This document shows positions 14,053 to 44,470 of a stretch of DNA of 64,000 bases, in pieces. The stretch is from NCBI GenBank assembly GCA_964356135.1, contig CAYHGV010000001.1, positions 8,179-72,178 of the forward strand, read 5' to 3'. The translations under genes were made by a program, and so were the position numbers. The notes under the pieces are model-generated. The model saw only the letters and a list, made by a program, of their open reading frames with translations. It did no database searches and had not been told where the DNA came from. This stretch comes from an uncultured bacterium (GTDB lineage: Bacteria; Hydrothermota; Tepidihabitantia; CAYHGV01). Positions within the stretch are counted from its first letter, which is position 1; every line of letters starts with the position of its first letter.

Positions 14053-14073
14053 TCCGCCAAGATTCATGGCGGA
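14053..14073. promoter_or_regulatory. Palindrome TCCGCCA-N7-TGGCGGA, copy 1. Other copies lie at 14841-14861, 24802-24822 (degenerate), 35155-35175, 44244-44264 and 44316-44336.
   Basis: Read directly: 7-bp perfect inverted arms with an invariant 7-nt spacer length, in six copies, all in non-coding DNA. Confidence 0.6.
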
Positions 14074-14164
14074 CACAAAAAGCACAAAGAAGATAATTAT
14101 TTAGGTGTCAAAGAAATTTTCTTAAACTTTGTGTCCTTTGTATCCTTTGTGGTAAAAATTTCAA

Positions 14165-14773
14165 ATGAAAAAACCTAAACTCCGTGAGTTAGCCGAAGCT
14201 CTGCGGGCGATCTTCACCGGTCCCTATACCCGGAAGTTTCCCAGGGAGCCTTCACCCGCATTCCCCCGCTATCGGGGAATAATCGCCTTTGATAAAGATA
14301 AGTGTCTTGGCTGCGGCGCATGCGTTGAGGTCTGCCCGGCTTTAGCCCGGGAAATGGTCGACGATAAAAAAAAGAAAATCAGGAGGAATATCCACTATCA
14401 GGACCGGTGCGTCTACTGCGGTCAGTGTGTCGCCTACTGCACCAATAAGTATGCCATCGTTCATACGCCGGAATACGATCTGGCAAATCTCGACCGCAGC
14501 CACTACGATAATTCTATCGAATTAGAGCTGGTGATGTGCGAGGTCTGCGGAGGGGTGATAACCACCCGGAATCACCTGCGCTGGATCGCCAACAAGGTCG
14601 GTGAACTGGCGTATGCCAATCCGACGTTGATGTTAATAAAATTGGGCGAGCTGGGTTTAGTCGAGGAAACTGTACCCCGAACCGAACCCGCGCCCTACCG
14701 TTCCGACACCCAGAGATTGCTCTGCCCCCGATGCCGCCGGGAGATTCATCTCACCGAGGTATGGGGGTATTGA
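14165..14773 (+). CDS. 2x[4Fe-4S] ferredoxin subunit (NuoI/HycF/MbhN-like).
   Basis: The motifs are CLGCGACVEVCP and CVYCGQCVAYC, with extra Cys pairs (CEVCGG, CPRCRRE). The protein ends EVWGY*, and the last codons are duplicated at 18598-18630. Confidence 0.75.
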   Translation: MKKPKLRELAEALRAIFTGPYTRKFPREPSPAFPRYRGIIAFDKDKCLGCGACVEVCPALAREMVDDKKKKIRRNIHYQDRCVYCGQCVAYCTNKYAIVHTPEYDLANLDRSHYDNSIELELVMCEVCGGVITTRNHLRWIANKVGELAYANPTLMLIKLGELGLVEETVPRTEPAPYRSDTQRLLCPRCRREIHLTEVWGY

Positions 14774-14861
14774 CGTTTTTTTCCCGAGAGATAAAATAAT
14801 ACCAGCGAACTAACATAGAACTTGAATTCTGACATAACCATCCGCCACGAGGTATGGCGGA

Positions 14862-15045
14862 CACACGAAGAAACACGAACGGGCACGAAAGGAATATTGG
14901 TAGTGAGCGAAATTCAATTTTCACCAATGAGGTGGAAAACAAAGAATGGTTGGTGGCGCTTCGCTCCACCTACTCTTCGAGTTTCGTGTCAATTCGCAAT
15001 CGTTCGTGTAAATTCGTGGTTTCTTATTTTAGGACTTGGGATAAA
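14862..15045. repeat. CACGAA-box element: a left arm with several ACACGAA/GCACGAA repeats and a right arm with matching TTCGTG repeats. Related copies lie at 23800-23910, 24620-24680, 44040-44200, 16640-16700 (partial) and 14074-14140 (a CACAAA variant).
   Basis: Read directly. The copies at 23800 and 44040 share a core of about 45 nt: GAAATTCG.AGAATAGAG.GA.TG.AAGGA.CTCAAA. Their termini are inverted (TTATCACG...CGTGATAA). Confidence 0.55.
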
Positions 15046-15065
15046 ACTTTAACTACAGGAGGCAG

Positions 15066-16551
15066 TTACATGAAACGAGTTTTTTTCGGATTGGCGATAG
15101 TAGTGGTTTCGCTTTTCGCCCAGACCGCGATCGAAGGTGCCTGGGAAGGAACAATTGTCGTTCTCGAGCAAGAGCTTGCGACCACGGTCAGTTTTTCAAA
15201 ATCGGGAGATAGCCTAACCGCAACCATCGATATTCCGCAGCAGAACGCAAGCAATCTCAAACTTGAGAAGGTGAGTTTTGATGGAACCAGGGTCCATTTC
15301 GAGCTTGCTGCTCAAACCAGGGTTATTTTTGACGGTAAGCTCGATACGGGAAAGATAACCGGTGATTTTACCCAGGCAGGGTTCAAGGGAACATTCGAGC
15401 TTGCGCCAGCCAAAAGAGTGGCAACCGGACCACCGCCGTATCGGGAAGAAGAAGTTTCGATAAAAGTAAACGCAGAAGTTACTCTTGCCGGGACGCTATC
15501 GCTGCCGCCCGATTCGGCGAAGCACCGGGCGGTGATACTTATCACCGGCAGCGGCCAGCAGGATCGCGATGAAAACGTCTTCGGGTTCAAAGTGTTCAAG
15601 GTTCTGGCAGACAGTCTTACCCGCGCCGGCATCGTAGTTCTGCGTTGCGACGACCGCGGCTTCGGCAAGTCGAAGGGCGGCGAAGGAGGGTGGAACAAGA
15701 ATACCTCCCGGGATTTTGCTCAGGATGTGCTTGCCCAGGTCGATTACTTGAAGACCCGTCCGGAGGTTGATACCGTTCAGCTCGGACTGCTCGGTCACAG
15801 CGAAGGTGCGCTCATTGCCGGTATGGTTGCGGTTGCTTCTCCGAGCGTTGCTTTTGTTGTTTTAATGGCGGGGTCGGCGGTTCGCGGTGACCAACTGCTG
15901 CTTGCCCAGCTTGAAGCGGTGATGCGGGCGGATAGTGTTTCCGAGAAAAAAATCGCTCGCCAGCGTGATATCCAGCGACGGATATTTGAGTTTGCTCGCA
16001 CCGGCAAAGGCGAAGAGGCGCTGCGCAAGGATATCGGCACATTGATGCTCGCCGATATCAGCGAGCTGCCCGCGGAGCAGCGCAAGGTAATAAGTAATAC
16101 GGAAGAGATTGTGAAAAAACAGGTCGATGGCCAGATTGCGGCCGTCACCAGCCCCGGTTTTCGGTTCTTTCTCGATTACGACCCCCGGTCCGACCTCGGC
16201 CGGATGCAGACTCCGATGCTGGCACTGTTCGGGAAGTTCGATGTTCAGGTTCCGGCCGAGATGAACGCCCGGGCGATGGAGGAGACGTTCAAAAAGGCGG
16301 GGAAGATCAACTACACCATCAAGACCTGCTGCCAGGCGAATCATCTGTTCCAGTCGGCGAAGACCGGCGGTATCTCGGAATACGGCAAGCTGCCGAAAGA
16401 GTTCACTCCCTGTTTCCTGCCGACCATCATCAACTGGATTCTGGGAAAGCCGATTCCGGAGAAGTGCGAGGGGGAGCAAGGTAATCCCCACGAGGGCTGT
16501 CCGAAGGCAGAGACCGGTAACTGCGCCGGCTGCCCGTATCACCAGAAATAG
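15066..16551 (+). CDS. Secreted alpha/beta-hydrolase (GHSEG nucleophile elbow) with a Cys-rich C-terminal tail.
   Basis: There is a signal peptide (MKRVFFGLAIVVVSLFAQTAIEG), then GLLGHSEGALIAG (GxSxG) with later Asp and His. The ORF track begins at 14854, but that upstream stretch is a repeat element and not coding. Confidence 0.7.
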
Positions 16552-16595
16552 ATTCGGGTTGTTATATTGAAATTTGTAAATGCGAATTAAAGAAA

Positions 16596-16625
16596 CCAAC
16601 AGGTTTTATTTTACACCTGTTTGGT
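16596..16625 (+). terminator. Hairpin (ACCAACAGGT...ACCTGTTTGGT) followed by a weak T-tract, lying 45 nt after the hydrolase stop.
   Basis: Inverted repeat read directly. Its core AACAGGT/ACCTGTT is the same palindrome found at 16797 and 18767. Confidence 0.4.
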
Positions 16626-16796
16626 GAATTTCGGAGTTGCTTAATTCTAAAATTCCCTTCGTGCCTATTCGGGTCTCTTCGTGTCAATTCGTGGTTAAGA
16701 CTGGATTCGGGTTGAACTAAGGATACTGAGTAGGTTCTCCAAGCGTTTTTTTGTCATTGCGCGCAATCTCAAGTGTAAATATCTCAAGACGATTGT

Positions 16797-16818
16797 AGCA
16801 ACAGGTCTTTAGACCTGT
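16797..16818. promoter_or_regulatory. Near-perfect 20-bp palindrome AACAGGTCTTTAGACCTGTT, about 75 bp upstream of the -35 box of the 16952 operon. A degenerate second copy lies at 18767-18788, upstream of the HNH gene.
   Basis: Read directly. Both copies sit within a conserved ~40-nt context (TGTAG.AACAGGTCTTT(T)AGAC.TGT...). Confidence 0.5.
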
Positions 16819-16951
16819 TGATGAGTTTGTAGGGTTAGAACGCGTCGCCAACTTTGTTTAATTTCACTAGGCTGTGCGTCGTCTTGACAAAAAGAGAAAA
16901 ATGGGTTATTAGTTAGTATGGGGTTAAAAGAAGGCCTGCCGAGAGGCGAAT

Positions 16952-17389
16952 ATGAATAGACCAAATCTAAAAAACAGAGCTCACGACCGGCAGGACAGGG
17001 TCGCGGTCTGGAGGATTACGGTCGATGAGAAACTGTCCGAGGATTATATCCGGCTGTTAGTCAGTCCATTAGACTCCGGCGTAAAAGACTTTTCCGACGA
17101 GAAGGATAATTGGGGTAGAGAGACGATAATGTTTGTCCAGTCCGAAAATTACGCCCAGATAATGAAAATACCGGCAAAATTTTCTAAAAAGATTCTGTGG
17201 TCGGACTTATGGGAAGGGCAGGTCTTTCTTGCTGGCAGATTCCGAATCGTGGGTAATAAAAAAACACCAGTGAAGTTTAGGGTTGACTCAAAACAGCAAA
17301 ATTTTCTTTCAATTTATGAATTGGCGAAGAAACAGATGAAACGCATCTATTTCCGCACGCTCGAGGGGAAGAGTGATGTCCCGAGTTAG
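16952..17389 (+). CDS. Hypothetical 145-aa protein encoded immediately upstream of, and overlapping, the MBL-fold gene.
   Basis: ORF with a sigma70-like promoter upstream (TTGACA at 16884). It overlaps the next gene by 17 nt, which suggests translational coupling. No recognisable motif. Confidence 0.5.
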   Translation: MNRPNLKNRAHDRQDRVAVWRITVDEKLSEDYIRLLVSPLDSGVKDFSDEKDNWGRETIMFVQSENYAQIMKIPAKFSKKILWSDLWEGQVFLAGRFRIVGNKKTPVKFRVDSKQQNFLSIYELAKKQMKRIYFRTLEGKSDVPS

Positions 17390-18461: not shown

Positions 18462-18836
18462 ATATGGACTGCGACTCATTTATTTAGAGATTTGATTCCA
18501 CTTTTGCGAAAAAGTGAAACAGGGAAGCTGAAAGTACAGAGGGCGGTGATGTAGGATGGTTCAGCATCAGCGATTATTGTATCCTCCGCTACCGGAGCGA
18601 AATTCACCTAACCCAGGTATGGGGGTATTAGGTTTCCGAGTTTGATAATTTTGAGTAAGGTAGCGGTGCGCTCGGACTGCTACAGTCCGCTATCGCACAC
18701 AGTAAAAGCAAATCTTGGTTTTTTCTCTTTCGTTAGGCGGTGGGAACTCTTCCAGAAAGCTGTAGAAACAGGTCTTTTAGACTTGTAGATTGTTTTGGGT
18801 ATCGTTTGGCTTGACAAATCTCCGATTCAAGGGTAA

Positions 18837-19616
18837 ATGTTACCTATGGAGGCTGAAGTAAAAGCTCCAAAAGAAGAAAAAGAAAACTGGTCAGAGCAAG
18901 AACTCGTTGTCGCCTTTAATTTGTACTGCAAGCTTCCTTTTGGTCAGTATCATAAACACAATAAAAAGGTAATTGAAATTGCTAAAATTCTTGGAAGAAC
19001 ACCGAGTGCGGTTGCGCTAAAATTATGTAATTTTGCAAGACTCGACCCGGTTCATCAAAAGCGTGGTATCAGGGGAATGAAACACGGGAGCAAACTTGAT
19101 GAGAAAATCTGGAATGAATTCAATCAAAACTGGGGTGGACTTTCATATCAGAGTGAAATTGCACTTGCCCAATTAAAAGGTCTTAAACATTACGGTTTGA
19201 TAAAAGACACGGAGAAGTTTCCCCCAGGTAAAGAAAAAGAAGCACTTGTTAAGGCGAGGATAAATCAGAATTTTTTTCGTGAGATGATATTGGCAGGTTA
19301 CAGAAATAGGTGCGCGATATGTTCTTTACCTGAAGTAAATTTATTAGTGGCTAGCCATATTATACCATGGTCTGAGAATGCGGATTTACGAATGAATCCA
19401 AGAAACGGAATTTGTATGTGTGTTTTACATGATAAAGCTTTCGATAAGGGTTTAATCACGATCAATGGTGATTATAAATTATTACTTTCGAAAATACTCA
19501 AAAGACTTTCTAAAGAACCAGCTATTCAAAGGGGATTCATTTTTTACGAGAGTTTTAAAATAAGACTACCTGATAAATTTATTGAATTCCATCGAAATGA
19601 GGTATTTATCGGATGA
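18837..19616 (+). CDS. HNH endonuclease-domain protein (restriction-enzyme-like HNH_2 type) with an N-terminal domain of unknown function.
   Basis: C-terminal RCAICSL...LVASHIIPWS...NGICMCVLHDKAFDKG (Cys pair plus the H-N-H core). Confidence 0.7.
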   Translation: MLPMEAEVKAPKEEKENWSEQELVVAFNLYCKLPFGQYHKHNKKVIEIAKILGRTPSAVALKLCNFARLDPVHQKRGIRGMKHGSKLDEKIWNEFNQNWGGLSYQSEIALAQLKGLKHYGLIKDTEKFPPGKEKEALVKARINQNFFREMILAGYRNRCAICSLPEVNLLVASHIIPWSENADLRMNPRNGICMCVLHDKAFDKGLITINGDYKLLLSKILKRLSKEPAIQRGFIFYESFKIRLPDKFIEFHRNEVFIG

Positions 19617-19763
19617 TAATCAGTACTTAACAATTCGATGCTGATTGAAGAGGAAGATATGAGGCAAGGTGGTCTTGACGAGATGTTGTTTTTAATTACA
19701 CTTATATCTAAGGAAACAAGTAATGAATTCCTATGCCTGTCGAAATGATTTCAAAGGATTATT

Positions 19764-20771
19764 ATGACAAAATTTGAGGTTAACCTGAACGAGAAATTTG
19801 CTTTGATTGCTGTCAGTACGTATGTTGACCGTGAATTACCATCTGAAAGACAGTATGCTCATGACCTTTGGGCAGTAAAGCTGCTACCTATCGGTGTCGG
19901 TAATCTCTGGGAGAAATGGCTGGGAAGTATCCTGATGGATCGATTAAAAAAAAGCAGTTTGTTTTTTATTGCCAAAGGCCCTTCGACCAATCCGGAACTT
20001 CTTGATGGAGACAACAAGAAATATATGAATCGAGTTTTTAATTTTTATAGGGGTTTGTTACTAAGTGGATTTCATATCGTAGATTCACCTATTCAATTAA
20101 CAGGGGTCAATAATGACCAAATAATAGATGTCCGAGAGATTGGCGAGCTTCCGAATCCTCGTTCTATCAGTGGTGAACATAACCAAAATGTCGATTCCAT
20201 ACAACTTATAGATGCTGCAAAGGTTGCCGATGCCATCAGGGATTTGCCAGGTCGAGGGAAGCTCTCGCGGTTTAAACGGATTTTGAATGCCTTTTTAGGC
20301 GGTATTGAAAGTTATTATGTGGAAGACAAAATTCATCAATTCTGTCGATGTATCGAAGGTTTCATCTACCCAGAGGTAGGGAAGACAAAGAGCCGATTCT
20401 GTTCACGAACTGAGTTGTTTCTCGGCCCACGCAATCATACGCTGATGGATCATTTGTATGATATTCGCAGTGCGGTAGAGCATATGCATAACCCACTGGA
20501 TGCAATTAGTGGCAGAAGTGGGAAGGAAAAGCGTCTTCTACTGTTACAGCGAAGCATCGAGGCAGAAGCGGTCGCTCGCTATTGCATTCGTCATCTGTTG
20601 CTGAATCGAAATTTATGGCAATATTTTGAAAATGAAAGCACACTAAATGACTTTTGGAAGAATAAGACAAATGCTGAACGGCAAAATATTTGGGGTGAGC
20701 CGTTTGATATCGGTGCTGTCTCAACCGGGTTCGATCCTACTATTTATAATGATGCGGACCTTGGTTTTTAA
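19764..20771 (+). CDS. Hypothetical protein with an Rx4H motif (RSAVEH); possibly a HEPN-like abortive-infection or RNase-type effector.
   Basis: The ORF contains YDIRSAVEHMHN (Rx4H), lies between the HNH and methyltransferase genes, and has lower GC than the flanking core genes. Confidence 0.45.
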   Translation: MTKFEVNLNEKFALIAVSTYVDRELPSERQYAHDLWAVKLLPIGVGNLWEKWLGSILMDRLKKSSLFFIAKGPSTNPELLDGDNKKYMNRVFNFYRGLLLSGFHIVDSPIQLTGVNNDQIIDVREIGELPNPRSISGEHNQNVDSIQLIDAAKVADAIRDLPGRGKLSRFKRILNAFLGGIESYYVEDKIHQFCRCIEGFIYPEVGKTKSRFCSRTELFLGPRNHTLMDHLYDIRSAVEHMHNPLDAISGRSGKEKRLLLLQRSIEAEAVARYCIRHLLLNRNLWQYFENESTLNDFWKNKTNAERQNIWGEPFDIGAVSTGFDPTIYNDADLGF

Positions 20772-20836
20772 AGGGAGCTTAGTAGGTGAGGGTGAAGAGT
20801 AAATGGATAATTTTGTGAATATTGAATTTAATAGGA

Positions 20837-22120
20837 ATGAATACATTACATAAAATAATCATCGGGGATTCGAGGGTAATGAAAGAGGTGGTGGATGAGT
20901 CGGTTCATCTGATCGTTACCTCTCCGCCTTACTGGCAGCTTAAGGATTATGGCAATGGGAAGCAGATAGGGTTTAATGATACCTACGAGGAATATATCAA
21001 TAATCTCAATCTTGTCTGGAATGAATGCCATCGGGTTCTGCATAAGGGCTGTCGTTTGTGTGTGAATATCGGCGACCAATTTGCCCGTTCGGTTTATTAT
21101 GGAAGATATAAGGTTATTCCAATAAGAACTGAAATAATCAAGTTTTGCGAAACGGCCGGTTTTGATTATATGGGTGCAATCATCTGGCAGAAGGTGACGA
21201 CCTGTCACACTACCGGCGGAGCAACGGTGATGGGTTCTTTTCCTTATCCAAGAAGTGGAATTCTTAAGCTTGATTATGAGTTTATTTTAATTTTAAAAAA
21301 ATATGGGGGTGGTCCGAAAGTTGGCAAAGAAGTCAAAGAACAATCGAGGTTAACACAAGAGGAATGGAATCAGTATTTTACTGGCCACTGGAATTTTGCC
21401 GGTGAAAAGCAGGATAAACACCTGGCGATGTTCCCGGAAGAACTGCCGAGGCGGCTTATCAAGATGTTTAGCTTTGTCGGAGATACCGTTTTAGACCCAT
21501 TTCTCGGCAGCGGCACGACCTCTTTAGCTGCTAAAAAGCTGAATCGTAATTCTATCGGCTACGAAATAAACGGCAGTTTTCTCAAAGTCATTAAAGAAAA
21601 GTTGGAAATAAGGCAGGGGTTAATCTTTCAAAACTCTCAATCTGAGATAATCGAGCAAGCGAAGTCTAAAACAGATTTCGCTGAAAGGATAAAAAGACTG
21701 CCCTATATCTTTAAGGACCCGATTAAATTCGATAAAATGGTTGACCCAAGAAAGTTAAAATTTGGCTCAAAGATTGATAATACCCATGCTGAACGGGAAA
21801 AGTATTATACGGTTAAAGAGATTGTCAGCCCGGAAATACTGGTTTTAAGCAACGGTTTAAAAATCAGGTTGATTGGAATAAGAGCGAAATCGGCAAAGAA
21901 TGAAGAAGCGATTCAATTTTTAAGAGAAAAAACCCGAGGGCAAAGGGTATTTATGAGGTTCGACGCTGTCAAATATGACGATAAAAATAACTTGTTGTGT
22001 TATTTGTACTTATGGAATAAAACCTTCATAAATGCTCACCTGATTAAAAATGGTCTGGTTGATGTCGATACGACTTTTGACTATAAATATAAGGCAAAAT
22101 TTTTATCGAAAGGAATGTAA
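20837..22120 (+). CDS. Beta-class DNA methyltransferase (N4-cytosine or N6-adenine) with a C-terminal degenerate SNase/OB-like domain.
   Basis: Motif IV (IVTSPPY) precedes motif I (VLDPFLGSGTT), which gives the beta-class order. The C-terminal ~150 aa fit the thermonuclease fold pattern (KIRLIGI...VFMRFD...NAHLIKNGLVDVD) but lack the DGD and D-PE catalytic residues. The ORF track begins at TTG 20822. Confidence 0.8.
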   Translation: MNTLHKIIIGDSRVMKEVVDESVHLIVTSPPYWQLKDYGNGKQIGFNDTYEEYINNLNLVWNECHRVLHKGCRLCVNIGDQFARSVYYGRYKVIPIRTEIIKFCETAGFDYMGAIIWQKVTTCHTTGGATVMGSFPYPRSGILKLDYEFILILKKYGGGPKVGKEVKEQSRLTQEEWNQYFTGHWNFAGEKQDKHLAMFPEELPRRLIKMFSFVGDTVLDPFLGSGTTSLAAKKLNRNSIGYEINGSFLKVIKEKLEIRQGLIFQNSQSEIIEQAKSKTDFAERIKRLPYIFKDPIKFDKMVDPRKLKFGSKIDNTHAEREKYYTVKEIVSPEILVLSNGLKIRLIGIRAKSAKNEEAIQFLREKTRGQRVFMRFDAVKYDDKNNLLCYLYLWNKTFINAHLIKNGLVDVDTTFDYKYKAKFLSKGM

Positions 22121-22122
22121 TA

Positions 22123-22827
22123 ATGCCAAAGGAATGGATAAAAGGCGTTGAGGGCTGCGCTCTAAAGTTCAAAAGAGAGGGTTTGTTAAACGCTGCGATG
22201 AACCGTTGGGGTCTTAATAAGGCGCACAGCGTTGATACGACTTCAGAACTGATACGACAATGTTCTCCTCGATCTTTTGCAGAATGGGAAAGGTTTTATT
22301 TTAGCAATGCGAAACAAAAGAAGCGGGACGGGGTTAGGATTACAAAAAAATATTTGAAAGATTTAGGAAGGAAGCTCTATATTAAATTAACGGAAGTTGT
22401 TCAGAGTGAAATAGAATCTATTACAGAGGAAGAATGCATAGATTATGTTTTTAATCTTGTATTGAATCGAACATTTGAGGGTTATCGGTCTGAAATCCGG
22501 ACCGTTTATGGACAATTGCAGGATGCCTTGGGAGTCAGTGTCGAACCCGCTCCCGATGAGTGGGATCGGGGTTATAATGTGGATTTTTTCATTAAGGTTA
22601 AGGATAAATACATTGGCCTTCAGATCAAGCCCGCAGGATTCGCTTACATTCCGCAAATCATTAATGAATTGGGGTTTCAGAAAAAGACCCATGAAAAATT
22701 TATTGCTAAATATGGTGGTAAAGTATTCTATATAATTTCAGTCAAGGAGGGTAAACAGAAAAAAATCCATAATACCGAAGTTATTGAAAAAATTAGGAAA
22801 GAGATTCAGAGGTTGGAAAAATTATAA
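22123..22827 (+). CDS. Hypothetical protein; candidate PD-(D/E)xK-type restriction endonuclease partner of the adjacent methyltransferase.
   Basis: It begins 3 nt after the methyltransferase stop, is 234 aa, and contains GYNVDFFIKVKDKYIGLQIKP, which may be a D...K/ExK-like core. There is no firm family match. Confidence 0.4.
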   Translation: MPKEWIKGVEGCALKFKREGLLNAAMNRWGLNKAHSVDTTSELIRQCSPRSFAEWERFYFSNAKQKKRDGVRITKKYLKDLGRKLYIKLTEVVQSEIESITEEECIDYVFNLVLNRTFEGYRSEIRTVYGQLQDALGVSVEPAPDEWDRGYNVDFFIKVKDKYIGLQIKPAGFAYIPQIINELGFQKKTHEKFIAKYGGKVFYIISVKEGKQKKIHNTEVIEKIRKEIQRLEKL

Positions 22828-22892
22828 TATTACCACTTCGCTTAGGGAGGTATAGCGGGTTACAAAGCCCTCAACCAAAAGGAGGCTATTCT

Positions 22893-23768
22893 ATGGTCAG
22901 AATTAAGCTGGTAGCCGTTGTGCTAATTTTACTGCTCAATGCCGGGTTGTGTGCCAAGCCGGCTCAGGATATTTCGGTGATAACCAAGCAGTTGGAGAAA
23001 TACGACTTGACCGATGTCAATTCGATCGGGACGGCGCTGGAGTTTGTCAAGAGTACCATCAACCGGTTGTCGCCGGCAGACCGGGATTCGGCGTTTTTCG
23101 CATTCTCCACCTTTTACTATACGACCATGAATGAGTTTAATGAAAAACAACTCTGGAGTAACGATAGTCTTACGAATAAGCTCTATGCCGATACGCTCAA
23201 TACTGACCCGGCAGTAAAGGCGCTCAAGCAGAAACTGGCAGCCAACGGCCTCGGTCTCTATATGACCGAAGGCAATTACTATGTCGATGCCCTGCCCGAT
23301 TACCTGTACGATAACTTTTCGCGCTCGGTTTCTCCTTCGGTTAAGGAATTTCTTCGAATCAGAAAAGGCGAACTGGCAGCCGGTTTCTCGGAGGATGCCG
23401 GTCTGGTAATCAGTTTCGAGGAGTTGGGGAAACGGGTCATTGCCTGGGAAAATTTTATTGATACCTTCCCCGATTCCCCATTAGTCGGCGAAGCAAAATC
23501 GAACTGGGATTTATATCTGTCAACCTTGCTCTCGGGAATGGACAATTCGAGGATTTTTGATTTTGACAGCAACCAGTTGATACCGGCAGTAAAGCAAGTC
23601 TATAATACCTTCCTTGAGAAATATCCGCAAACCAGGAGCGGGAAATTAATAGCAAAATTCTATAACTTCCTGAAAGAAAATAATTTCGAATATTCGGAGG
23701 CGGTGGAGGAGTTTTATGAAACAAATAAAATCCATTCAATGTTAGGAGTCCAGCCGCCGACGCGATAG
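22893..23768 (+). CDS. Secreted hypothetical protein.
   Basis: N-terminal signal peptide (MVRIKLVAVVLILLLNAGLCA); 291 aa. Confidence 0.5.
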   Translation: MVRIKLVAVVLILLLNAGLCAKPAQDISVITKQLEKYDLTDVNSIGTALEFVKSTINRLSPADRDSAFFAFSTFYYTTMNEFNEKQLWSNDSLTNKLYADTLNTDPAVKALKQKLAANGLGLYMTEGNYYVDALPDYLYDNFSRSVSPSVKEFLRIRKGELAAGFSEDAGLVISFEELGKRVIAWENFIDTFPDSPLVGEAKSNWDLYLSTLLSGMDNSRIFDFDSNQLIPAVKQVYNTFLEKYPQTRSGKLIAKFYNFLKENNFEYSEAVEEFYETNKIHSMLGVQPPTR

Positions 23769-23995
23769 CCGGACAAATTTGAGTAAGAAAAAGATTTCAT
23801 CACGAAAGTTATGAAATCACGAAAACACGAAATTCGTAGAATAGAGCGACTGGAAGGAGCTCAAATTCGCCAAGAAGTATTGCTGATTTCGTGGTAATTT
23901 TTATACTCGTCAGGGCTGTCCTTGAGCACTTGACAATCGACTTTTAAAGGGCACAATGGATTAATGAAACCACAAATAAAAAATTTTAAGGAGGT

Positions 23996-24592: not shown

Positions 24593-24885
24593 GATAATGT
24601 AAACTCGAATCCAGACGTAACCACGAATGGGCACGAAGAGAAACGAAGTAACACGAACGCCTCGTTTCGAGGCGAAATATTAGACTTGAAATGCGAAGCA
24701 TAAGTGGAGTGAAACGATACCTGCAAAACCCGATATTGACTAAATAGGTGAAAAATAAAAAATATTTTTCTTTAATTCGCAATCATTCGAGTAATCTGTC
24801 ACTCGCCATACAGAGTGGCGGGTAAGGCGGACGTGGTTTTTTATCGCTGGATTGAGGGTAAATAATAATTAAGGAGGTGTTGAAT

Positions 24886-25766: not shown

Positions 25767-25798
25767 TATCGAGCCGGTGGAAGGAGGGGAAACGCCTG

Positions 25799-31959: not shown

Positions 31960-32094
31960 TTACTATAAATTCTAAATTCGAAGTTCGAAATTCGAAACAA
32001 GCACGCATAATCAAAATACAAAATTCAAAACTGCACTATTCAAATTTTGAGCACTTAGAATTTGGGTATTGTTCTGAATTGAACAGAGCGAGAA

Positions 32095-35078: not shown

Positions 35079-35206
35079 GCATACTATAAAAACCACGGAA
35101 TACACTGAAAGCACTGAACAACAGATTCGGATAGTTCATTATTTTCCTTCCGTGTCCGCCATAGATCGTGGCGGATCCGTGGTTACATTATTTGTCCGGG
35201 GACTTG

Positions 35207-36607
35207 ATGGCTAACATCGTTCCGAAAAAGACCGCGATGCGGGAACAGCCGGCCCAGGAACGGGTCAAAAACTTCGAAGAGGTTCCGTACGGCTACAGCC
35301 CGGAGGAGGCAATATTCGAAGCCAAGCGGTGTCTGTTGTGCAAGCGGTCAACCTGTATTGGAGGCTGTCCGGTAGAAATTGATATTCCCGGTTTTATTCA
35401 ATTGATTGCCGAAGGGGATTTCAAAGGCGCGATCAAGAAATTGAAGGAAAAGAATGTCCTGCCGGCGGTGTGCGGGCGGGTCTGTCCGCAGGAGGACCAG
35501 TGTGAAAAGGTCTGCGCCCTGGCAAAAAAATTCGAACCGGTTGCCATTGGTCGATTAGAACGATTCGCCGCGGACTGGGAAGCTGCCCAGGGCGAGTCGC
35601 CCGTTCCTGAAAAGCCGGCCCCCACCGGGAAAAAGGCGGCGGTGATCGGCGCAGGTCCGGGCGGTTTGACGGTTGCCGGCGATTTAATCCGACTCGGACA
35701 TGCAGTAACTATTTTCGAAGCTCTGCACAAACCGGGCGGGGTGCTGGTGTATGGCATCCCCGAATTCCGTCTGCCCAAGGCGATCGTCTACCGGGAAGTA
35801 GATTACCTCGTTCGGTCCGGGGCGAAGCTCGTCCTCGATTTTGTCGTCGGCAAAACGGCGACGATTGACCAGCTGTTAAAAGAATTCGACGCGGTCTATA
35901 TCGGTACCGGTGCCGGCCTTCCCTGGTTTATGAATATTCCGGGTGAAAACCTGAACGGAGTCTATTCGGCAAATGAATACCTGACCCGCTCCAATTTGAT
36001 GAAAGCCTATCTCTTTCCGGAGTATGATACTCCGATTGTGCGCGGAAAGAATGTCGCAGTGGTCGGCGGCGGAAATGTAGCGATGGACTGTGCTCGGACG
36101 GGATTGCGGCTCGGTGCGGATGAAGTCCGGATAGTCTATCGCCGCTCGAAAACCGAGATGCCGGCTCGGATCGAGGAGATTCACCATGCGGAAGGAGAAG
36201 GAATAATCTTTGAATGGTTAACGTTACCGGTGAAATACTTCGGCGATGAAAAAGGCTGGATCAAGAGGATGGAGTGCATCAAGATGGAGCTGGGTGAGCC
36301 CGATTCATCGGGTCGAAGAAGGCCGGTGCCGATTGAAGGTTCCAATTTCATAACCGAGGTGGATACGGTGGTGTGTGCAATCGGCCAGAGTCCTAATCCA
36401 CTCATTCCCCAAACGACTCCGGATTTGAAGATTGGCAAATGGGGTAATATTGAAGTTGATCCAAAGACCAACCGCACGGCTAAAAAGGGTTGCTTTGCCG
36501 GTGGTGATGTTGTGCGGGGTGGGGCGACGGTGATTCTGGCAATGGGTGATGCCCGAGTCGCGGCGCGGTCAATGGATGAGTATATGAGAACCGGTATCTG
36601 GAAATAG
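35207..36607 (+). CDS. NfnB/SudA/GltD-like NAD(P)H-dependent FAD oxidoreductase with an N-terminal 2x[4Fe-4S] domain.
   Basis: CLLCKRSTCIGGCP and CGRVCPQEDQCEKVC motifs. The dinucleotide-binding sites are AAVIGAGPGG and VAVVGGGNVAMDCART. The ORF track begins at GTG 35168, inside a palindrome; the ATG at 35207 is the more likely start. Confidence 0.85.
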   Translation: MANIVPKKTAMREQPAQERVKNFEEVPYGYSPEEAIFEAKRCLLCKRSTCIGGCPVEIDIPGFIQLIAEGDFKGAIKKLKEKNVLPAVCGRVCPQEDQCEKVCALAKKFEPVAIGRLERFAADWEAAQGESPVPEKPAPTGKKAAVIGAGPGGLTVAGDLIRLGHAVTIFEALHKPGGVLVYGIPEFRLPKAIVYREVDYLVRSGAKLVLDFVVGKTATIDQLLKEFDAVYIGTGAGLPWFMNIPGENLNGVYSANEYLTRSNLMKAYLFPEYDTPIVRGKNVAVVGGGNVAMDCARTGLRLGADEVRIVYRRSKTEMPARIEEIHHAEGEGIIFEWLTLPVKYFGDEKGWIKRMECIKMELGEPDSSGRRRPVPIEGSNFITEVDTVVCAIGQSPNPLIPQTTPDLKIGKWGNIEVDPKTNRTAKKGCFAGGDVVRGGATVILAMGDARVAARSMDEYMRTGIWK

Positions 36608-36707
36608 GCTCAACAAAAACAATCGGCAGTTTTATCCACGAAGTGCTTTTAGAAAAACCCGGATTAAAAAATTAAATATCCCCGCGCCGACGCCGGGCGG
36701 AACTTTT

Positions 36708-37826: not shown

Positions 37827-37996
37827 GCACCCCCTTTGGATAGTTTTTATAGATGCCCATAATCGAATTAAAATTACTAAAACCTCCTAAAATAGGTACA
37901 ATACACATTGTAAAATATATTATGTTATTTGTTCTGGTTTGTCAAGGGAGAAAATTGAAAGGTTCTATTTGAAGTAGCGCCTACCAAGGGTAGGCG

Positions 37997-41001: not shown

Positions 41002-41061
41002 GTGAATTACTGGTTAAATTCCGCAGTTATCGAAACCCCGATCGGCGATGAATACTCGGGG

Positions 41062-41838
41062 TTAACTGATGCTGAAGCACCGTTTGCCATTTTCACAGGT
41101 AACCTGCGCAAGTTCGCCGCTCGCGATCCCACGTGCCTGCGCCATCGCCTCCACGACAAAGCTGACAAACCGGGGTTCATTCCGTTTGCCGCGCTCGGGT
41201 TGGGGTACGAGATAGGGGCAGTCGGTCTCGGCAAGAAGCCGGTCGATGGGCGCAGTTTTAATAATTGATTTGAGTTCCAGACCGTTGAATGTTATCGAAC
41301 CGGAAAAGGAAAGGAAGAAGCCGAGGTTGAGAGCTTCCCGGGCAAACGGCTGGTCGCCGGAGAAGCAGTGCATTACGCCGCTACAATAGTTTTCCGCTTT
41401 CAAGATCTTGAGCGCTTCACTGTGGCCGTTGCGGATGTGGATAATGAGCGGCAGGTTCAATTCTTGGGCTAACCGAATCTGGTGTGTGAATGCCCGGTGC
41501 TGGTTTTCCGGTTTTGAATAGTTGCGATAGAAGTCAAGGCCGGTCTCGCCAATCGCTTTGACCTTCGGATGGCGGGCAAGCTTTTTCAGGTCTTCGATAG
41601 TTTCTTCGGTCCAGGAATCGGCGTCATGGGGGTGAACCCCGACTGCGCCGTAGATCTGAGGATACCGGCTGGCGAGTTCAATCGCGCTCCGGCTCGTTGG
41701 CAGGTCATAGCCGACACAGAGGATATAGGCGATTCCTTGTTCAAGGGCTCGATTGATGACCGCATCCCGGTCATGGTCGAATGCTCGGTCGGTTAGATGG
41801 GCGTGAGTGTCGAAAAGGCAGGGATCAGGGGTGAGCAT
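41062..41838 (-). CDS. tatD: TatD-family metal-dependent DNase/hydrolase.
   Basis: N-terminal LFDTHAHL, an internal GETGLD stretch, and a C-terminal ETDCPYL stretch. Confidence 0.85.
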   Translation of the reverse strand: MLTPDPCLFDTHAHLTDRAFDHDRDAVINRALEQGIAYILCVGYDLPTSRSAIELASRYPQIYGAVGVHPHDADSWTEETIEDLKKLARHPKVKAIGETGLDFYRNYSKPENQHRAFTHQIRLAQELNLPLIIHIRNGHSEALKILKAENYCSGVMHCFSGDQPFAREALNLGFFLSFSGSITFNGLELKSIIKTAPIDRLLAETDCPYLVPQPERGKRNEPRFVSFVVEAMAQARGIASGELAQVTCENGKRCFSIS

Positions 41839-41992
41839 TTAGGAGTTAGGAGACATCAGTAAGATGCAGTGTATCCGCGTTATTCAGTGTCAAACTCCGT
41901 GGTTATCTGCGTTTTCGATAAAGTTGTGGGATTTTCTACTTCGTGAGACATAGATGTCGAAGAAACAGGAAGTTGAGTTTCAACATTGAGGG

Positions 41993-43978
41993 TCAGGAGA
42001 CCGGGGTGCCGGGTGGTGCCTCTCGATCCAGTGTCACCAGGGAGATATCTTTGCCATCGGTTGCAGCCAAGAGCATGCCGTGCGAAACCAGGCCGCGGAT
42101 CTTTGCCGGTGCGAGATTGGCAACGAGGACAATGCTTCTGCCGACCAGACTTTCCGGGCTGTAAGCCTGTGCGATACCCGCGACGATCTCGCGCGTTTCC
42201 GTGCCCAGGTCGACCTCGAGGTGCAGCAGCTTGTCCGCGCCTTCGACCTTTACCGCCGAGATGATTTTGGCGACCTTGAGTTCTAACTTTTTGAATTCGT
42301 CAAACGATAGTTCCACCGTTACCTCCTGCGGTTTAGTTAATTTGGCGATCTGGACGTCGATTTTTTCGTCGTCAATTTTATTAAAAAGAATTTTTATCGG
42401 ACCGACCTCGGTGGGCAGAGCCGGGTCTTCGGACTGGTCCCAGTTCCGCTTGCCGAAACAGAGCATCTCGTTGATTGTCCCGGCGGTAAAAGGGAGATAG
42501 GGTTGGGCAAGAATGCCGAGCGCAGAGATTAATTTGAAACAGCAGCTGATCGTCCGCTCACAGGCTTCGGGGTCGGTCTTGATCGTCGACCAGGGCGCCT
42601 GGTAATCGAAGTAGCGGTTGCCCTCCGCCGCAAGCTTCATAATTTCTTTCAAGCCGTTTTTCAATTCGAAGCGCTCAATCAGGGTAGTGAGATTTTTTGA
42701 CGTCTCTCGAATCATGCCCGTAATCCGCTGGTCGACCTCACGGTCGGGATGATGCTTTGGTACTCTGCCGCCGTAGTATTTCTTGGTAAAAAGCACTACC
42801 CGGTTGATAAAATTGCCCAGGATATCGGCAAGCTCATTATTGTTGCGGGCTTGAAAATCCTTCCAGGTGAAATCGACATCCCGGTTTTCGGGGAGGTTTG
42901 CCGCCAGGGTGTAGCGCAGCGGGTCGGGTTCAAATTCGGTTAAATACTCCGGCAGCCAGACCGCCCAGTTACGGGAGGTGGAAAGCGGTCGGCCCTCAAG
43001 GTTCAAAAACTCGTTAGCGGGGATCTCGGCGGGCAATATATAGTCGCCATACGCCATCAGCATTGCCGGCCAGACCATGGCATGAAAGACGATATTGTCC
43101 TTACCGATAAAATGGACGAGCTTTGTGTCCGGGCTCTGCCAGTATTCCTTCCATGCATCCGGTGTGCCCCTTTTTTCCGCCCACTCGATGGTCGACGAGA
43201 TATAACCGATGGGTGCGTCAAACCAGACATACAAAACTTTACCCCGGGCTTCGGCTAACGGCACCGGTACGCCCCAGTTCAGGTCCCGGGTTATCGCTCG
43301 CGGCTCTAATCCTTCTTTGAACCATCCGGCACAGAATTTTAAGACATTATCTTTCCAATCGGTTTTGGTCTGTAGCCAGTCGGCTAACGGTTTCTGGAAT
43401 CGGTCTAAGAGGAAAAACCAGTGGGTGGTCTCGCGTTTTTCCGGGGTGGTCGAGCAGATTTTGCAGCGGGGGTCTTTCAGCTCGAAAGGCTCGAGCCACC
43501 TTCCGCAGGTTTCGCACTGGTCGCCCCGGGCACCGGCTGTTTCACAATGGGGACAGGTCCCTTCGACGTAGCGGTCGGGCAGGAATCGGGAACATTTCGG
43601 GCAGTAGAACTGGGTGAGGGTTTTCGGTTGAATGTAACCTTTCCCGTAGATTTTAAGAAAGAAATCTTGGGCGAGTTTATAGTGGAGGGCGAGGGTGGTG
43701 CGGGAGAAATTGTCGAAGCTGATGCCGAACCGCTCAAAGCTTTCTTTGATGCTCTTATGATAGCGGTCGACGACTGCGCGCGGGGTTGTCTTTTCGGCTT
43801 CGGCTTTTAAGGTTGCGGGTACGCCGTGTTCGTCGGTGCCGCCGATATGAATTACCTCCCGTCCTTTCAGTCGTTGATAGCGGGTATAGATGTCGGCGGG
43901 TAGGTAGCAGCCGGCAAGGTGTCCTAAGTGGATTTCGCCATTGGCATAGGGTAAGGCGCTCGTAACGAGAATTTTCAT
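41993..43978 (-). CDS. metG: Methionyl-tRNA synthetase with a C-terminal EMAP/tRNA-binding domain.
   Basis: N-terminal PYANGEIHLGHL (the HIGH motif), a Zn knuckle CPKC...CPHC, and a C-terminal AKIRGLVSHGMLLAA tRNA-binding domain. Confidence 0.9.
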   Translation of the reverse strand: MKILVTSALPYANGEIHLGHLAGCYLPADIYTRYQRLKGREVIHIGGTDEHGVPATLKAEAEKTTPRAVVDRYHKSIKESFERFGISFDNFSRTTLALHYKLAQDFFLKIYGKGYIQPKTLTQFYCPKCSRFLPDRYVEGTCPHCETAGARGDQCETCGRWLEPFELKDPRCKICSTTPEKRETTHWFFLLDRFQKPLADWLQTKTDWKDNVLKFCAGWFKEGLEPRAITRDLNWGVPVPLAEARGKVLYVWFDAPIGYISSTIEWAEKRGTPDAWKEYWQSPDTKLVHFIGKDNIVFHAMVWPAMLMAYGDYILPAEIPANEFLNLEGRPLSTSRNWAVWLPEYLTEFEPDPLRYTLAANLPENRDVDFTWKDFQARNNNELADILGNFINRVVLFTKKYYGGRVPKHHPDREVDQRITGMIRETSKNLTTLIERFELKNGLKEIMKLAAEGNRYFDYQAPWSTIKTDPEACERTISCCFKLISALGILAQPYLPFTAGTINEMLCFGKRNWDQSEDPALPTEVGPIKILFNKIDDEKIDVQIAKLTKPQEVTVELSFDEFKKLELKVAKIISAVKVEGADKLLHLEVDLGTETREIVAGIAQAYSPESLVGRSIVLVANLAPAKIRGLVSHGMLLAATDGKDISLVTLDREAPPGTPVS

Positions 43979-44470
43979 AGATGAGAGTAACGGTTTTTAT
44001 CACAACTGTCAAGTTAAGCCATTGAGAGCTCTGCGAAACTACAAAAATTATCACGAAAGCACGAAAGGACGAAATTCGAAGAATAGAGTGATTGCAAGGA
44101 ACTCAAAGCCACGAAAAAATAAGCGTAGTATTTTCAAAAAGTTAGAACCTTTCGTGTTTTCCGGATTTCGTGGTTCACGTGATAAAAAGGACTTTTTCAG
44201 GGGTCTCCCATTAGAACTATGATTAACCACAGAAGACACTGAATCCGCCATAGTGCGTGGCGGAACGGAAGGGTAATTGTTTGTATTTCATTATAATTAT
44301 TCGGTGAGTTCCGTGTCCGCCATGTTGCGTGGCGGATCAGTGGTTAAAAATGATTTTTCCAGGGTGGCCATTTGTTTCGCAGCGTGTAGCAGAAGCAAGA
44401 ATCTACGAGTTCGTATAATCAGTCTTATCAGGACTGGATAAAAATCAGGTCTGTCCCGTGCAACGAGGGA

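What the first reader, a model, noticed from the sequence alone, without database searches (positions are those of the whole stretch)
14053..44336. Six copies of a 21-bp palindrome TCCGCCA-N7-TGGCGGA in intergenic DNA
Read directly, copies lie at 14053, 14841, 24802 (degenerate CTCGCCA...TGGCGGG), 35155, 44244 and 44316. The arm sequence and the spacer length are perfectly conserved while the spacer sequence varies. That is the signature of a dimeric DNA-binding protein site and not of an RNA element. Copies sit 30-100 bp upstream of the ferredoxin gene of the hydrogenase cluster, the alpha/beta-hydrolase gene, the 24886 ORF and the nfnB-like gene. The last site lies inside the NuoEFG-NfnAB cluster and overlaps the annotated GTG. 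Two copies lie in tandem upstream of metG. Three copies are embedded at the 5' end of CACGAA-box repeats, so the palindrome may alternatively be the terminal part of a mobile repeat.
Basis: seen in the sequence. Interest (0 to 1): 0.6.

Follow-up and report, generated by a model that had tools for sequence, protein, structure and literature searches.

The report
Mobile hairpin repeat, not an operator
The 21-bp palindrome is real, but it behaves as a gained-and-lost hairpin module inside small repeat elements of an uncultured WOR-3 bacterium (the same hairpin is also found in Omnitrophota), not as a regulator's binding site.

Summary
Five exact TCCGCCA-N7-TGGCGGA copies occur where none is expected by chance. 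All lie in non-coding DNA.

The operator reading does not hold. Every copy sits in the same slot of a larger self-complementary "box-array" element (AACCAC…GTGGTT), between the outermost and next box. Two related WOR-3 genomes lack the palindrome at every orthologous site that could be compared. At nfnA|nfnB the relative has overlapping genes, and the window has a 128-bp insert flanked by an 8-bp duplication. At gyrI|DUF6506 the relative has a 10-nt gap. Downstream of fd the element body is 90% identical, yet the hairpin is replaced by a different one.

The same hairpin is an interspersed repeat in Omnitrophota and Planctomycetota-labelled MAGs. There it is often tandem, flanked by direct box repeats, and in places inserted in Moco riboswitch loops. 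Arm changes are compensatory (C…G for T…A, never one-sided), which argues for a folded single strand.

Best reading: a REP/MITE-like hairpin module. No mobilising enzyme was found, and it lacks the GTAG/CGTC tags of known REPs.

The parts
14053..14073 (.). hp1 copy 1 (TCCGCCA-AGATTCA-TGGCGGA), between box 1 and box 2 of the left arm of element E1
   Evidence: Exact match. Sequence context. RNA -11.3 and DNA -7.9 kcal/mol.
14841..14861 (.). hp1 copy 2 (loop CGAGGTA), directly after AACCA at the left end of element E2
   Evidence: Exact match. In the orthologous R2 element (L116) this slot holds a different hairpin, TTCGCCTCGAAACGAGGCG, while the flanks are 90% identical.
24802..24822 (+). Degenerate hp1 (CTCGCCA-TACAGAG-TGGCGGG) in the right arm of element E5, before the last box
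   Evidence: 3 mismatches to the consensus. The C-G outer pair is compensatory and pair 2 is U.G only on the + strand. DNA fold -6.6 (+) against -4.8 (-) kcal/mol.
35155..35175 (.). hp1 copy (loop TAGATCG) in the right arm of element E6, flanked by direct TCCGTG boxes
44244..44264 (.). hp1 copy (loop TAGTGCG) in the left arm of element E7
44316..44336 (.). hp1 copy (loop TGTTGCG) in the right arm of element E7
23866..23886 (.). Decayed hp1 remnant (TTCGCCAAGAAGTATTGCTGA) in the right arm of box element B3, in the same slot before the last TTTCGTGGT box
   Evidence: 3 mismatches, no longer folds (-1.7 kcal/mol, z = -0.06). The R2 orthologue of B3 has other sequence there.
14026..14163 (.). Element E1: CACAAA-box palindrome (AACCACAAA…TTTGTGGT) at the mnhG|fd junction, flanked by AATGAAA (14019 and 14164)
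   Evidence: Inverted repeat I4, fold, direct repeat. The other two genomes carry unrelated elements at this junction.
14774..15046 (.). Element E2: CACGAA-box palindrome (core 14836-15021) with outer inverted repeats 14777-14799 and 15024-15046, between fd and the alpha/beta-hydrolase gene
   Evidence: Inverted repeats I5 and I13, fold -68 kcal/mol. 90% identical to R2 against 65% at third codon positions.
24619..24838 (.). Element E5: CACGAA-box palindrome (AACCACGAA…CGTGGTT) between the gyrI-like and DUF6506 genes. It also holds hairpin hp2 at 24658-24674.
   Evidence: R1 has only a 10-nt gap at this junction.
35079..35206 (.). Element E6: 128-bp insert between nfnA and nfnB (core AACCACGGA…TCCGTGGTT, 35091-35184), flanked by the 8-bp direct duplication ATGGCTAA (35071-35078 and 35207-35214)
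   Evidence: R1 has nfnA and nfnB overlapping as ATGGCTGA with no insert. Duplication found.
44203..44354 (.). Element E7: CACTGA/ACGGAA-box palindrome with two hp1 side hairpins, flanked by TTTTTCAGGG (44193) and TTTTCCAGGG (44355)
44049..44186 (.). Box element B7 (TATCACGAAAG…CACGTGATA) without hp1. It is a paralogue of the hp1-bearing L038:6040-6230 element and of B3.
   Evidence: (I10).
51836..51962 (.). Box element B9 (AAATTC/TAAATC boxes) without hp1. The R1 orthologue (L038:7040-7260) carries hp1 at its end.
   Evidence: (I1, I2).
24658..24674 (.). hp2, a second hairpin family (CGCCTCG-TTT-CGAGGCG) that occupies hp1-type slots in related genomes

Best explanation
The palindrome (hp1) is a 21-nt stem-loop module with a 7-bp stem and a 7-nt loop. 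It belongs to a family of small, non-coding, interspersed repeat elements. It is not a transcription-factor operator.

In this WOR-3 genome hp1 always sits as a side hairpin in one arm of a 100-270-bp self-complementary box-array element, between the outermost box (AACCACNNA / TNNGTGGTT) and the next one.

Shown:
- The composite elements are gained and lost between close relatives. One insertion carries an 8-bp target duplication confirmed by an empty site.
- The hairpin can be present, absent, decayed or replaced by another hairpin in an otherwise conserved element.
- The same hairpin is a multi-copy repeat in Omnitrophota and in Planctomycetota-labelled MAGs.
- Changes in its arms are compensatory.

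Inferred:
- The hairpin forms in single-stranded nucleic acid and is the structure recognised by whatever enzyme spreads or maintains it, by analogy with REP/RAYT and IS200/IS605 ends.
- Its narrow occurrence in WOR-3 against wide occurrence in Omnitrophota suggests horizontal arrival.
- When transcribed it adds a stable hairpin (-11 to -16 kcal/mol) to leaders and intercistronic mRNA. Selection only has to tolerate this.
For: Observation and context:
- 5 exact copies against 0 expected, all in non-coding DNA.
- All copies lie in box-array palindromes at the same slot.

Comparison of three genomes (W, R1, R2). Third-codon identity to the window is about 0.65 for R2 and about 0.58 for R1.
- nfnA|nfnB: the genes overlap in R1. 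The window has a 128-bp insert with an ATGGCTAA duplication.
- gyrI|DUF6506: 10-nt gap in R1, 293 nt with E5 in the window.
- mnhG|fd: three unrelated elements in three genomes.
- E2: the body is 90% identical to R2 but the hp1 slot is only 63% identical and holds a different hairpin.
- metG upstream region in R1 has no hp1.
- R1 has hp1 at two sites where the window has none.
- A decayed copy lies at 23866.

Other phyla:
- Identical arms occur in several Omnitrophota MAGs and in Planctomycetota-labelled MAGs, with a conserved unit of about 60 nt, GTG-[hp][hp]-GAT.
- Unit copy number varies at an orthologous tsaE site.
- Insertions sit in different terminal loops of orthologous Moco riboswitches.
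- Flanks are enriched for direct repeats: mean longest 5.28 against 3.57 shuffled, 17 of 50 at 6 nt or more. Inverted repeats are not enriched.

Covariation:
- Pair 1-21 is U-A 39, C-G 8, unpaired 0. Ten cells changed on both sides against 2.3 in shuffles (0 of 500 reached this).
- Internal stem mismatches (pairs 2-6) read by eye in the tandem units are G.T on the GTG-flanked strand, with one C.A exception (L082).
Against: - No transposase or other candidate mobilising gene is in the window.
- No Y1/HUH transposase was found in about 0.8 Mb of hp1-seeded loci.
- The outer ends of the composite elements are not conserved, and the putative target duplications differ in length (7, 8 and 10 bp). 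Only one is verified by an empty site.
- At least E2 is under constraint (90% against 65% at synonymous positions), so some elements are functional DNA or RNA rather than pure parasites.
- Identity of the 7-bp arms across phyla could equally reflect a shared host factor that binds them.
- One unrelated contig (L086) has three hp1 copies with no box arrays next to a sigma-54 activator gene, which could be a true protein-binding use.
- Only about 110 kb of this WOR-3 lineage was available.
Confidence: 0.6

Rival explanations
1. hp1 is kept because of what it does as RNA. It would be a transcribed stem-loop in leaders and between cistrons that stabilises or processes mRNA, tunes translation, or binds a conserved RNA-binding protein. 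Copies would spread by duplication or gene conversion. This is not exclusive of the best explanation, since REPs do both.
For: - Stable hairpins, z about -4.
- Compensatory arm changes and U.G pairs.
- Copies sit within operons (nfnA-nfnB, mnhG-fd) and within Moco riboswitch loops in the sense orientation.
- The E2 leader is conserved at 90% and a hairpin of some kind is kept in the slot in both genomes.
- The E5 copy folds better on the sense strand.
Against: - The stem sequence is conserved and the loop is not, which is the opposite of most protein-binding RNA hairpins.
- The orientation of the polar GTG-[hp][hp] unit relative to flanking genes is mixed, roughly 12 sense to 9 antisense by rough gene calls. 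It is clearly antisense in the tsaE operon.
- Folding energies of whole elements show no sense-strand bias.
- Orthologous genes do without it.
- One copy has decayed.
- No Rfam family matches.
Confidence: 0.2
2. hp1 is the operator of a dimeric transcription factor (the first reader's reading, for example a redox regulator of the hydrogenase and Nfn genes).
For: - Perfect dyad with fixed 7-bp spacing and variable spacer sequence.
- All copies are intergenic and upstream of some gene.
- On one unrelated contig, three copies lie beside a sigma-54 activator gene with an HTH_8 domain.
Against: - Absent at the orthologous nfnB, metG, DUF6506 and hydrolase sites. Retained at the fd junction only in R1, inside an unrelated element.
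- Always inside repeat elements.
- Distances to starts range from 32 to 338 bp. The metG pair lies within 150 bp of the stop of the upstream gene.
- Compensatory rather than independent half-site changes.
- Found inserted in riboswitch loops and as back-to-back tandems in other phyla.
- The downstream genes have no common function: fd, hydrolase, DUF6506, nfnB, metG.
- No regulator gene was found in the window ORFs scanned.
Confidence: 0.06
3. hp1 is not itself mobile. Box-array palindromes are hotspots where short GC-rich hairpins arise and are homogenised by gene conversion or template switching. The shared sequence across phyla would then be convergence on a stable stem or on a shared repair or replication factor.
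For: - hp1 and hp2 share T(Y)CGCC…GGCG and occupy the same slot. The window's E2 hp1 loop (CGAGG) resembles the 3' arm of R2's hp2.
- Copy number of units varies in place at the tsaE site.
- Flanks are direct box repeats, as expected from slippage.
Against: - 14 of 14 arm positions are identical between WOR-3 and Omnitrophota, which is unlikely by convergence.
- In Omnitrophota a unit of about 60 nt, including loop consensus, recurs at many non-orthologous sites.
- Whole elements appear with a target duplication at a previously overlapping gene junction.
Confidence: 0.12

Closest known systems
REP / BIME / REPIN elements mobilised by RAYT (Y1 HUH) transposases (Enterobacteria, Pseudomonas, Stenotrophomonas SMAG)
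   Same: Short (20-40 nt) GC-rich extragenic palindromes that form stem-loops. They occur singly, in tandem or as inverted pairs. They are mixed with other short motifs in mosaic clusters, lie inside operons, show strand polarity with a short 5' tag, and show compensatory stem changes.
   Different: hp1 has no GTAG or CGTC tag, the feature that defines the two described REP superfamilies (PMC3733652); it has only a frequent GTG. No RAYT was found. The arms are invariant while the loop is free. The identical stem occurs in different phyla. The hairpin is nested as a side branch in variable box-array palindromes.
MITEs that fold into long hairpins (Neisseria Correia/NEMIS, pneumococcal BOX and RUP, enterobacterial ERIC, cyanobacterial Nezha)
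   Same: The 100-270-bp non-coding composite elements have terminal inverted repeats (AACCAC…GTGGTT or TATCAC…GTGATA). They show insertion polymorphism between relatives, a target-site duplication (8 bp verified once) and insertion between co-transcribed genes. They are modular, with a variable number of internal boxes, as in BOX A-(B)n-C.
   Different: Arm and box sequence differs from copy to copy while the two arms stay complementary. The outermost ends are not conserved. No parent IS is known. The one ORF-bearing version found (in R1) encodes a GxxExxY PD-(D/E)XK protein, not a known transposase.
Neisseria dRS3 / NIME mosaic elements
   Same: A 20-bp repeat with conserved inverted arms and a variable spacer (from memory: ATTCCC-N8-GGGAAT) punctuates blocks of variable intergenic repeats.
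   Different: The sequence is unrelated. dRS3 is a duplex target of phage and IS110-type recombinases. For hp1, covariation points to a folded single strand, and no recombinase is linked to it.
Palindromic operators of dimeric repressors (Rex TTGTGAA-N6-TTCACAA, Rrf2/IscR type)
   Same: Perfect dyad symmetry with fixed spacing.
   Different: The sequence is unrelated to these consensus sites (recalled from knowledge, not tested here). There is no conservation at orthologous promoters. hp1 is always embedded in a repeat and its arm changes are compensatory.

Membership tests
REP (GTAG/CGTC superfamilies) with RAYT | 20-40-nt extragenic palindrome forming a stem-loop | tested here: met
   7-bp stem and 7-nt loop, -11 to -16 kcal/mol as RNA. 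All copies are non-coding.
REP (GTAG/CGTC superfamilies) with RAYT | Conserved GTAG or CGTC tetranucleotide at one end of the palindrome (PMC3733652) | tested here: not met
   Flanks read. GTG lies 5' in 4 of 8 WOR-3 copies and in the Omnitrophota units. No GTAG or CGTC is present.
REP (GTAG/CGTC superfamilies) with RAYT | Cognate single-copy Y1 (HUH) transposase gene flanked by the repeats | tested here: inconclusive
Whole genomes were not available.
REP (GTAG/CGTC superfamilies) with RAYT | High copy number genome-wide | not testable with these tools
   5 exact plus 2 degenerate copies in 64 kb; 3 copies in 43 kb of R1. The source genome is not in the searchable collections as a whole.
MITE | Terminal inverted repeats on a short non-coding element | tested here: met
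   AACCACNNA…TNNGTGGTT or TATCACGAAA…TTTCGTGATA termini, with arms that pair throughout.
MITE | Target-site duplication and filled/empty site polymorphism | tested here: met
   E6: ATGGCTAA duplicated, and the empty site in R1 is the ATGGCTGA gene overlap. E5: the empty site in R1 is a 10-nt gap. E1 (7 bp) and E7 (10 bp with 1 mismatch) have flanking direct repeats without an empty-site control.
MITE | Parent autonomous element with the same ends encoding a transposase | tested here: inconclusive
   L122:4055-4520 has the same TIR type plus hp1 and a GxxExxY (TIGR04256, E = 5.6e-42) PD-(D/E)XK ORF. This is one case only, and no transposase function is known for that family.
Transcription-factor operator / regulon | Site conserved upstream of orthologous genes in related genomes | tested here: not met
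   Absent at nfnB, metG and DUF6506 in R1, and replaced by another hairpin at the hydrolase leader in R2. At the fd junction R1 does carry hp1, but inside an unrelated ORF-bearing element. Across both relatives, the orthologous-site comparisons outside the fd junction give 0 retained.
Transcription-factor operator / regulon | Half-sites evolve independently (duplex recognition), not by compensatory pairs | tested here: not met
   Pair 1-21 is 39 U-A, 8 C-G and 0 one-sided. 10 cells changed on both sides against 2.3 in shuffles (0 of 500).
Transcription-factor operator / regulon | Cognate regulator present and co-occurring | not testable with these tools
   No HTH regulator was found among the 30 window ORFs scanned. 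The rest of the genome is not available.
Described RNA family (Rfam 15) | Match to a curated covariance model | tested here: not met
   No hit at gathering score in the window. Only chance-level hits at E of 2.6 or more in 13950-17000.
Intrinsic terminator | GC-rich hairpin followed by a T/U run | tested here: not met
   Only the minus-strand reading of the 14053 copy passes the scan. The number of terminator-like sites equals the shuffle expectation. No T run follows the other copies.

The most novel reading that the evidence does not exclude
hp1 is the recognition hairpin of a repeat system that has not been described and that spans phyla (PVC and FCB lineages). It is not of the GTAG/CGTC-REP type. 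In this reading a 21-nt stem-loop with a 5' GTG inserts strand-specifically into hairpin loops and box arrays, including the loops of functional riboswitches. It can overwrite a resident hairpin inside an otherwise conserved leader. The flanking 8-10-bp box arrays would be accumulated target duplications or footprints. The mobilising enzyme would be something other than a RAYT. The only lead is the GxxExxY PD-(D/E)XK gene carried inside one such element in R1.
Probability: 0.2. Interest if true: 0.65.

Novelty: new variant of a known kind. Interest (0 to 1): 0.38.

Why it matters
For annotating this window, the result removes a tempting but wrong regulon linking hydrogenase, Nfn and metG. It also corrects two start codons: nfnB at ATG 35207 and the hydrolase at ATG 15070.

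More generally, it shows that uncultured WOR-3 and Omnitrophota genomes carry dense families of REP/MITE-like repeats. These break assemblies: both R2 contigs that carry these elements are under 2 kb. They sit inside operons and riboswitches, and they turn over faster than synonymous sites.

If the enzyme that spreads the hairpin could be found, it would add a non-GTAG/CGTC class to the hairpin-repeat systems. It would also give a marker for recent DNA exchange between unrelated sediment and groundwater phyla.

Tried and rejected
- Rfam at gathering score on the whole window, and at E-value threshold on 13950-17000: nothing.
- tRNA/tmRNA scan: none.
- Full-text search for the two arm sequences returned only primers and unrelated hits. 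Searches for "Omnitrophota + palindromic + intergenic" and "GxxExxY" gave nothing useful.
- Viral contig scans with the tandem and the GTG-flanked patterns: one hit each, which I take as chance level.
- tblastn for Y1 transposases (queries from memory) and for the R1 GxxExxY protein against all fetched loci: no further copies. An ORF-clustering search for a gene family recurrently next to hp1 found only translated repeats and orthologous housekeeping genes such as tsaE.
- Sense against antisense folding energy of whole elements: no consistent bias.
- Orientation of the polar unit relative to genes, using GC-frame gene calls: mixed and rough.
- Sigma-70 promoter and terminator scan: no enrichment of terminators. 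One conserved promoter-like site at 14770-14797 belongs to E2, not to hp1.
- The look-up of the window's own MetG failed, so the source contig could not be extended.
- Reading 14854-15069 as an N-terminal extension of the hydrolase was rejected, because R2 has frame-breaking indels there.

Full report
**Observation.** A search for TCCGCCA-N7-TGGCGGA finds five exact copies, at 14053, 14841, 35155, 44244 and 44316. Dinucleotide-preserving shuffles give none.

Allowing mismatches adds three sites:
It has three mismatches to the consensus but still folds at -13.5 kcal/mol on the + strand.
- A decayed copy at 23866 that no longer folds.
- A chance hit inside a coding ORF at 54940.

A greedy ORF call puts about 88% of the window in coding sequence, and every real copy lies in the remaining 12%. 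The organism is a candidate division WOR-3 bacterium: its MetG is 100% identical to a protein from an NCBI contig of 75,944 bp, and the named hits in the list are annotated WOR-3.

**Anatomy.** Each copy is embedded in a larger element.
- A left arm begins AACCAC and carries 2-4 short boxes at roughly 8-10-bp spacing.
- A centre follows.
- A right arm carries the complementary boxes and ends GTGGTT.

The box sequence differs between elements: CACAAA in E1, CACGAA in E2 and E5, CACGGA/CACTGA in E6 and E7. Within each element the two arms stay complementary, and all of them fold as long hairpins.

The palindrome (hp1) always occupies the same slot, between the outermost box and the next one. It sits in the left arm in E1 and E2, in the right arm in E5, E6 and B3, and in both arms in E7. 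Elements of the same families also exist without hp1, at 44049-44186, 51836-51962 and 16650-16700.

**Comparative test.** Two related genomes were recovered.
- R1 is JGI 3300033061 (loci L038 and L122).
- R2 is JGI 3300002465 (loci L116 and L121).

Both are syntenic with the window. Third-codon identity to the window is about 0.58 for R1 and 0.65 for R2.

| Site | Window | R1 | R2 |
|---|---|---|---|
| nfnA\|nfnB | 128 bp (35079-35206) with E6 and hp1, flanked by two copies of ATGGCTAA that restore the nfnA stop and the nfnB start | genes overlap as ATGGCTGA, no insert | not available |
| gyrI-like\|DUF6506 | 293 nt with E5 | 10-nt gap | shares the left flank of E5, but has CACAGA boxes and tandem hp2 hairpins (CGCCTCG…CGAGGCG) |
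| mnhG\|fd | E1 | a CACGAA-box element of about 480 bp with hp1 and a GxxExxY ORF | an unrelated 135-bp box element without hp1 |
| downstream of fd | E2 with hp1 | lacks E2 and the hydrolase gene | E2 body 90% identical to the window |
| metG upstream | E7 with two hp1 | no hp1 | not available |

At the site downstream of fd, the E2 body in R2 is far more similar to the window than the synonymous sites of fd are. Yet the 21 nt of hp1 are only 63% identical, and R2 has a different hairpin there, TTCGCCTCGAAACGAGGCG.

In the other direction, R1 has hp1 in two intergenic regions where the window has none. One of these is the orthologue of the hp1-less element at 51836-51962.

A more distant WOR-3 locus (L117, 20.6 kb) has neither hp1 nor box arrays. 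An operator of a conserved regulon would not behave like this. A mobile or fast-turnover repeat would.

**Other phyla.** I scanned one genome per GTDB species with the flanked pattern GTG-hp1-T. Most hits were isolated coding-sequence matches in unrelated taxa, which I take as chance. Repeated hits came from several Omnitrophota MAGs and two Planctomycetota-labelled MAGs, and none from WOR-3. A scan of JGI metagenome contigs gave many more of the same type.

In these genomes the element is a conserved unit of about 60 nt: box-GTG-[hp1][hp1]-GAT-box. The two hairpins usually lie back to back. Several further properties emerged.
- Flanks are direct repeats far more often than chance: mean longest 5.28 nt against 3.57 shuffled, with 17 of 50 at 6 nt or more. 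Inverted flanks are at background.
- The hairpins interrupt one arm of a longer box palindrome, exactly as in WOR-3 (L022).
- At an orthologous site upstream of tsaE, three genomes carry one, two or more tandem units, with diverged boxes but identical hp1 arms.
- In Omnitrophota Moco riboswitches (RF01055, up to 60 bits), hp1 singlets or tandems are inserted in terminal loops, and in different loops in different genomes.
- Viral contigs are essentially free of it.

**Hairpin or duplex site?** I aligned 47 distinct copies taken from element-bearing loci. They were selected only by having at most 2 mismatches to the consensus, except for the 24802 copy, which has 3. That selection favours one-sided changes over two-sided ones.
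- Pair 1-21 is U-A 39 times, C-G 8 times and never unpaired.
- Pairs 2-20 and 7-15 also show flips on both sides.
- Overall 10 cells changed on both sides, against 2.3 in shuffles (0 of 500 shuffles reached this).

Internal stem mismatches (pairs 2-6) in the polar tandem units, read by eye, are G.T on the GTG-flanked strand, with one C.A exception in L082. Both results argue for pairing within one strand.

That strand is not consistently the mRNA strand. It is sense in the riboswitches, antisense in the tsaE operon, and roughly 12 to 9 overall by rough gene calls. Whole-element folding energies show no sense-strand bias either. This fits a single-stranded-DNA step or a strand-biased mutation process at least as well as an RNA function.

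**Mechanism.** I commit to the following, with confidence of about 0.6. hp1 is a stem-loop module of REP/MITE-like repeats. The composite box elements insert with a short target duplication; one 8-bp case is verified by an empty site. The hairpin module is itself gained, lost, decayed or overwritten.

What recognises the hairpin is unknown.
- No transposase or regulator turned up among the 30 window ORFs scanned.
- The only ORF found inside such an element is a GxxExxY PD-(D/E)XK protein in R1, a single case.

That the box arrays are accumulated footprints or slippage products is inference only. An RNA-level role in mRNA stability or processing is a compatible second layer (about 0.2). The operator reading is left at about 0.06.

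**Comparison with known systems.** hp1 works most like REP/BIME units, and the composite elements most like hairpin-forming MITEs such as BOX or Correia. It is not a member of the described REP superfamilies, because the defining GTAG or CGTC tag is absent (PMC3733652). It matches no Rfam family.

I rate it a new variant of a known kind. The features that stand out are these:
- The 14 arm positions are identical in unrelated phyla.
- The hairpin has a fixed slot as a side branch in variable palindromes.
- The hairpin was swapped inside a leader that is otherwise under constraint.

**Verdict.** Interest is moderate to low for the original claim. There is a modest chance (about 0.2) that an undescribed hairpin-repeat system spanning phyla lies behind it.

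Noticed in passing
window 24658-24674; L116:1103-1121; L121:1590-1630; L122:1019-1040: A second hairpin family, hp2 = (T)CGCCTCG-N3-5-CGAGGCG(A), occupies the same slots in box elements as hp1. It is tandem in R2 and replaces hp1 in the R2 orthologue of E2.
   Followed up: partly
window 14774-15069: The intergenic region between fd and the alpha/beta-hydrolase gene is 90% identical to R2, while third codon positions of fd are 65% identical. R2 has frame-breaking indels there, so the region is non-coding. A promoter-like TTGACG-16-TAAAAT at 14770-14797 is conserved. This is a candidate structured leader or ncRNA. The hydrolase start is ATG 15070, not 14854.
   Followed up: partly
L122:4055-4520 (R1, mnhG|fd junction): A box element with TATCACGAAA…TTTCGTGATA ends carries hp1 and a GxxExxY (TIGR04256 / PF13366 PD-(D/E)XK) ORF. 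The only ATG of that ORF lies upstream of the left repeat, so hp1 would be translated as part of an N-terminal extension.
   Followed up: partly
L086:3357-3868: On a GC 52% metagenome contig of unknown taxon, three exact hp1 copies lie within 500 bp at the 3' end of a sigma-54 activator (HTH_8) gene and the start of a TPR gene. There are no box arrays. This may be a different, protein-binding use of the same palindrome.
   Followed up: partly
L003:691-895, L006:2190-2382 (also L014, L099): Omnitrophota Moco/tungsten riboswitches (RF01055) carry 27-50-nt hp1 insertions in terminal loops, at different loops in different genomes.
   Followed up: partly
window 18837-23768: A low-GC (about 41%) island encodes an HNH_2 endonuclease, an N6_N4 methyltransferase fused to an SNase domain, and an MjaI-like restriction enzyme. 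The HNH_2 and methyltransferase genes are also present in R1; the MjaI-like restriction enzyme gene is not among the genes called there.
   Followed up: no
window 52839-53460: A PIN-domain (VapC-like) gene with a small upstream ORF sits between the PHP and asnS-like genes. R1 has an hp1-bearing CACGAA element at that position instead.
   Followed up: no
window 11165-11200, 31975-32000, 16650-16700: Further box arrays (CACAGA, TTCGAA, TTCGTG) occur without hp1 in other intergenic gaps. Such arrays are a general feature of this genome's non-coding DNA.
   Followed up: no
window ~16795-16825 and L122 ~5235: The palindrome TGTAGCAACAGGTCTTTAGACCTGTTG recurs after the hydrolase gene in the window and directly after fd in R1. 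This suggests that E2 plus the hydrolase gene (about 14774-16560) is an insertion or deletion difference between the window/R2 lineage and R1.
   Followed up: no
L054:10622-10670, L010:1334: In some Omnitrophota-like contigs the hp1 units lie inside long open frames, where they would read as Ser/Ala…Gly/Gly linker peptides. This may be in-frame insertion in coding sequence, as with Rickettsia palindromic elements.
   Followed up: no
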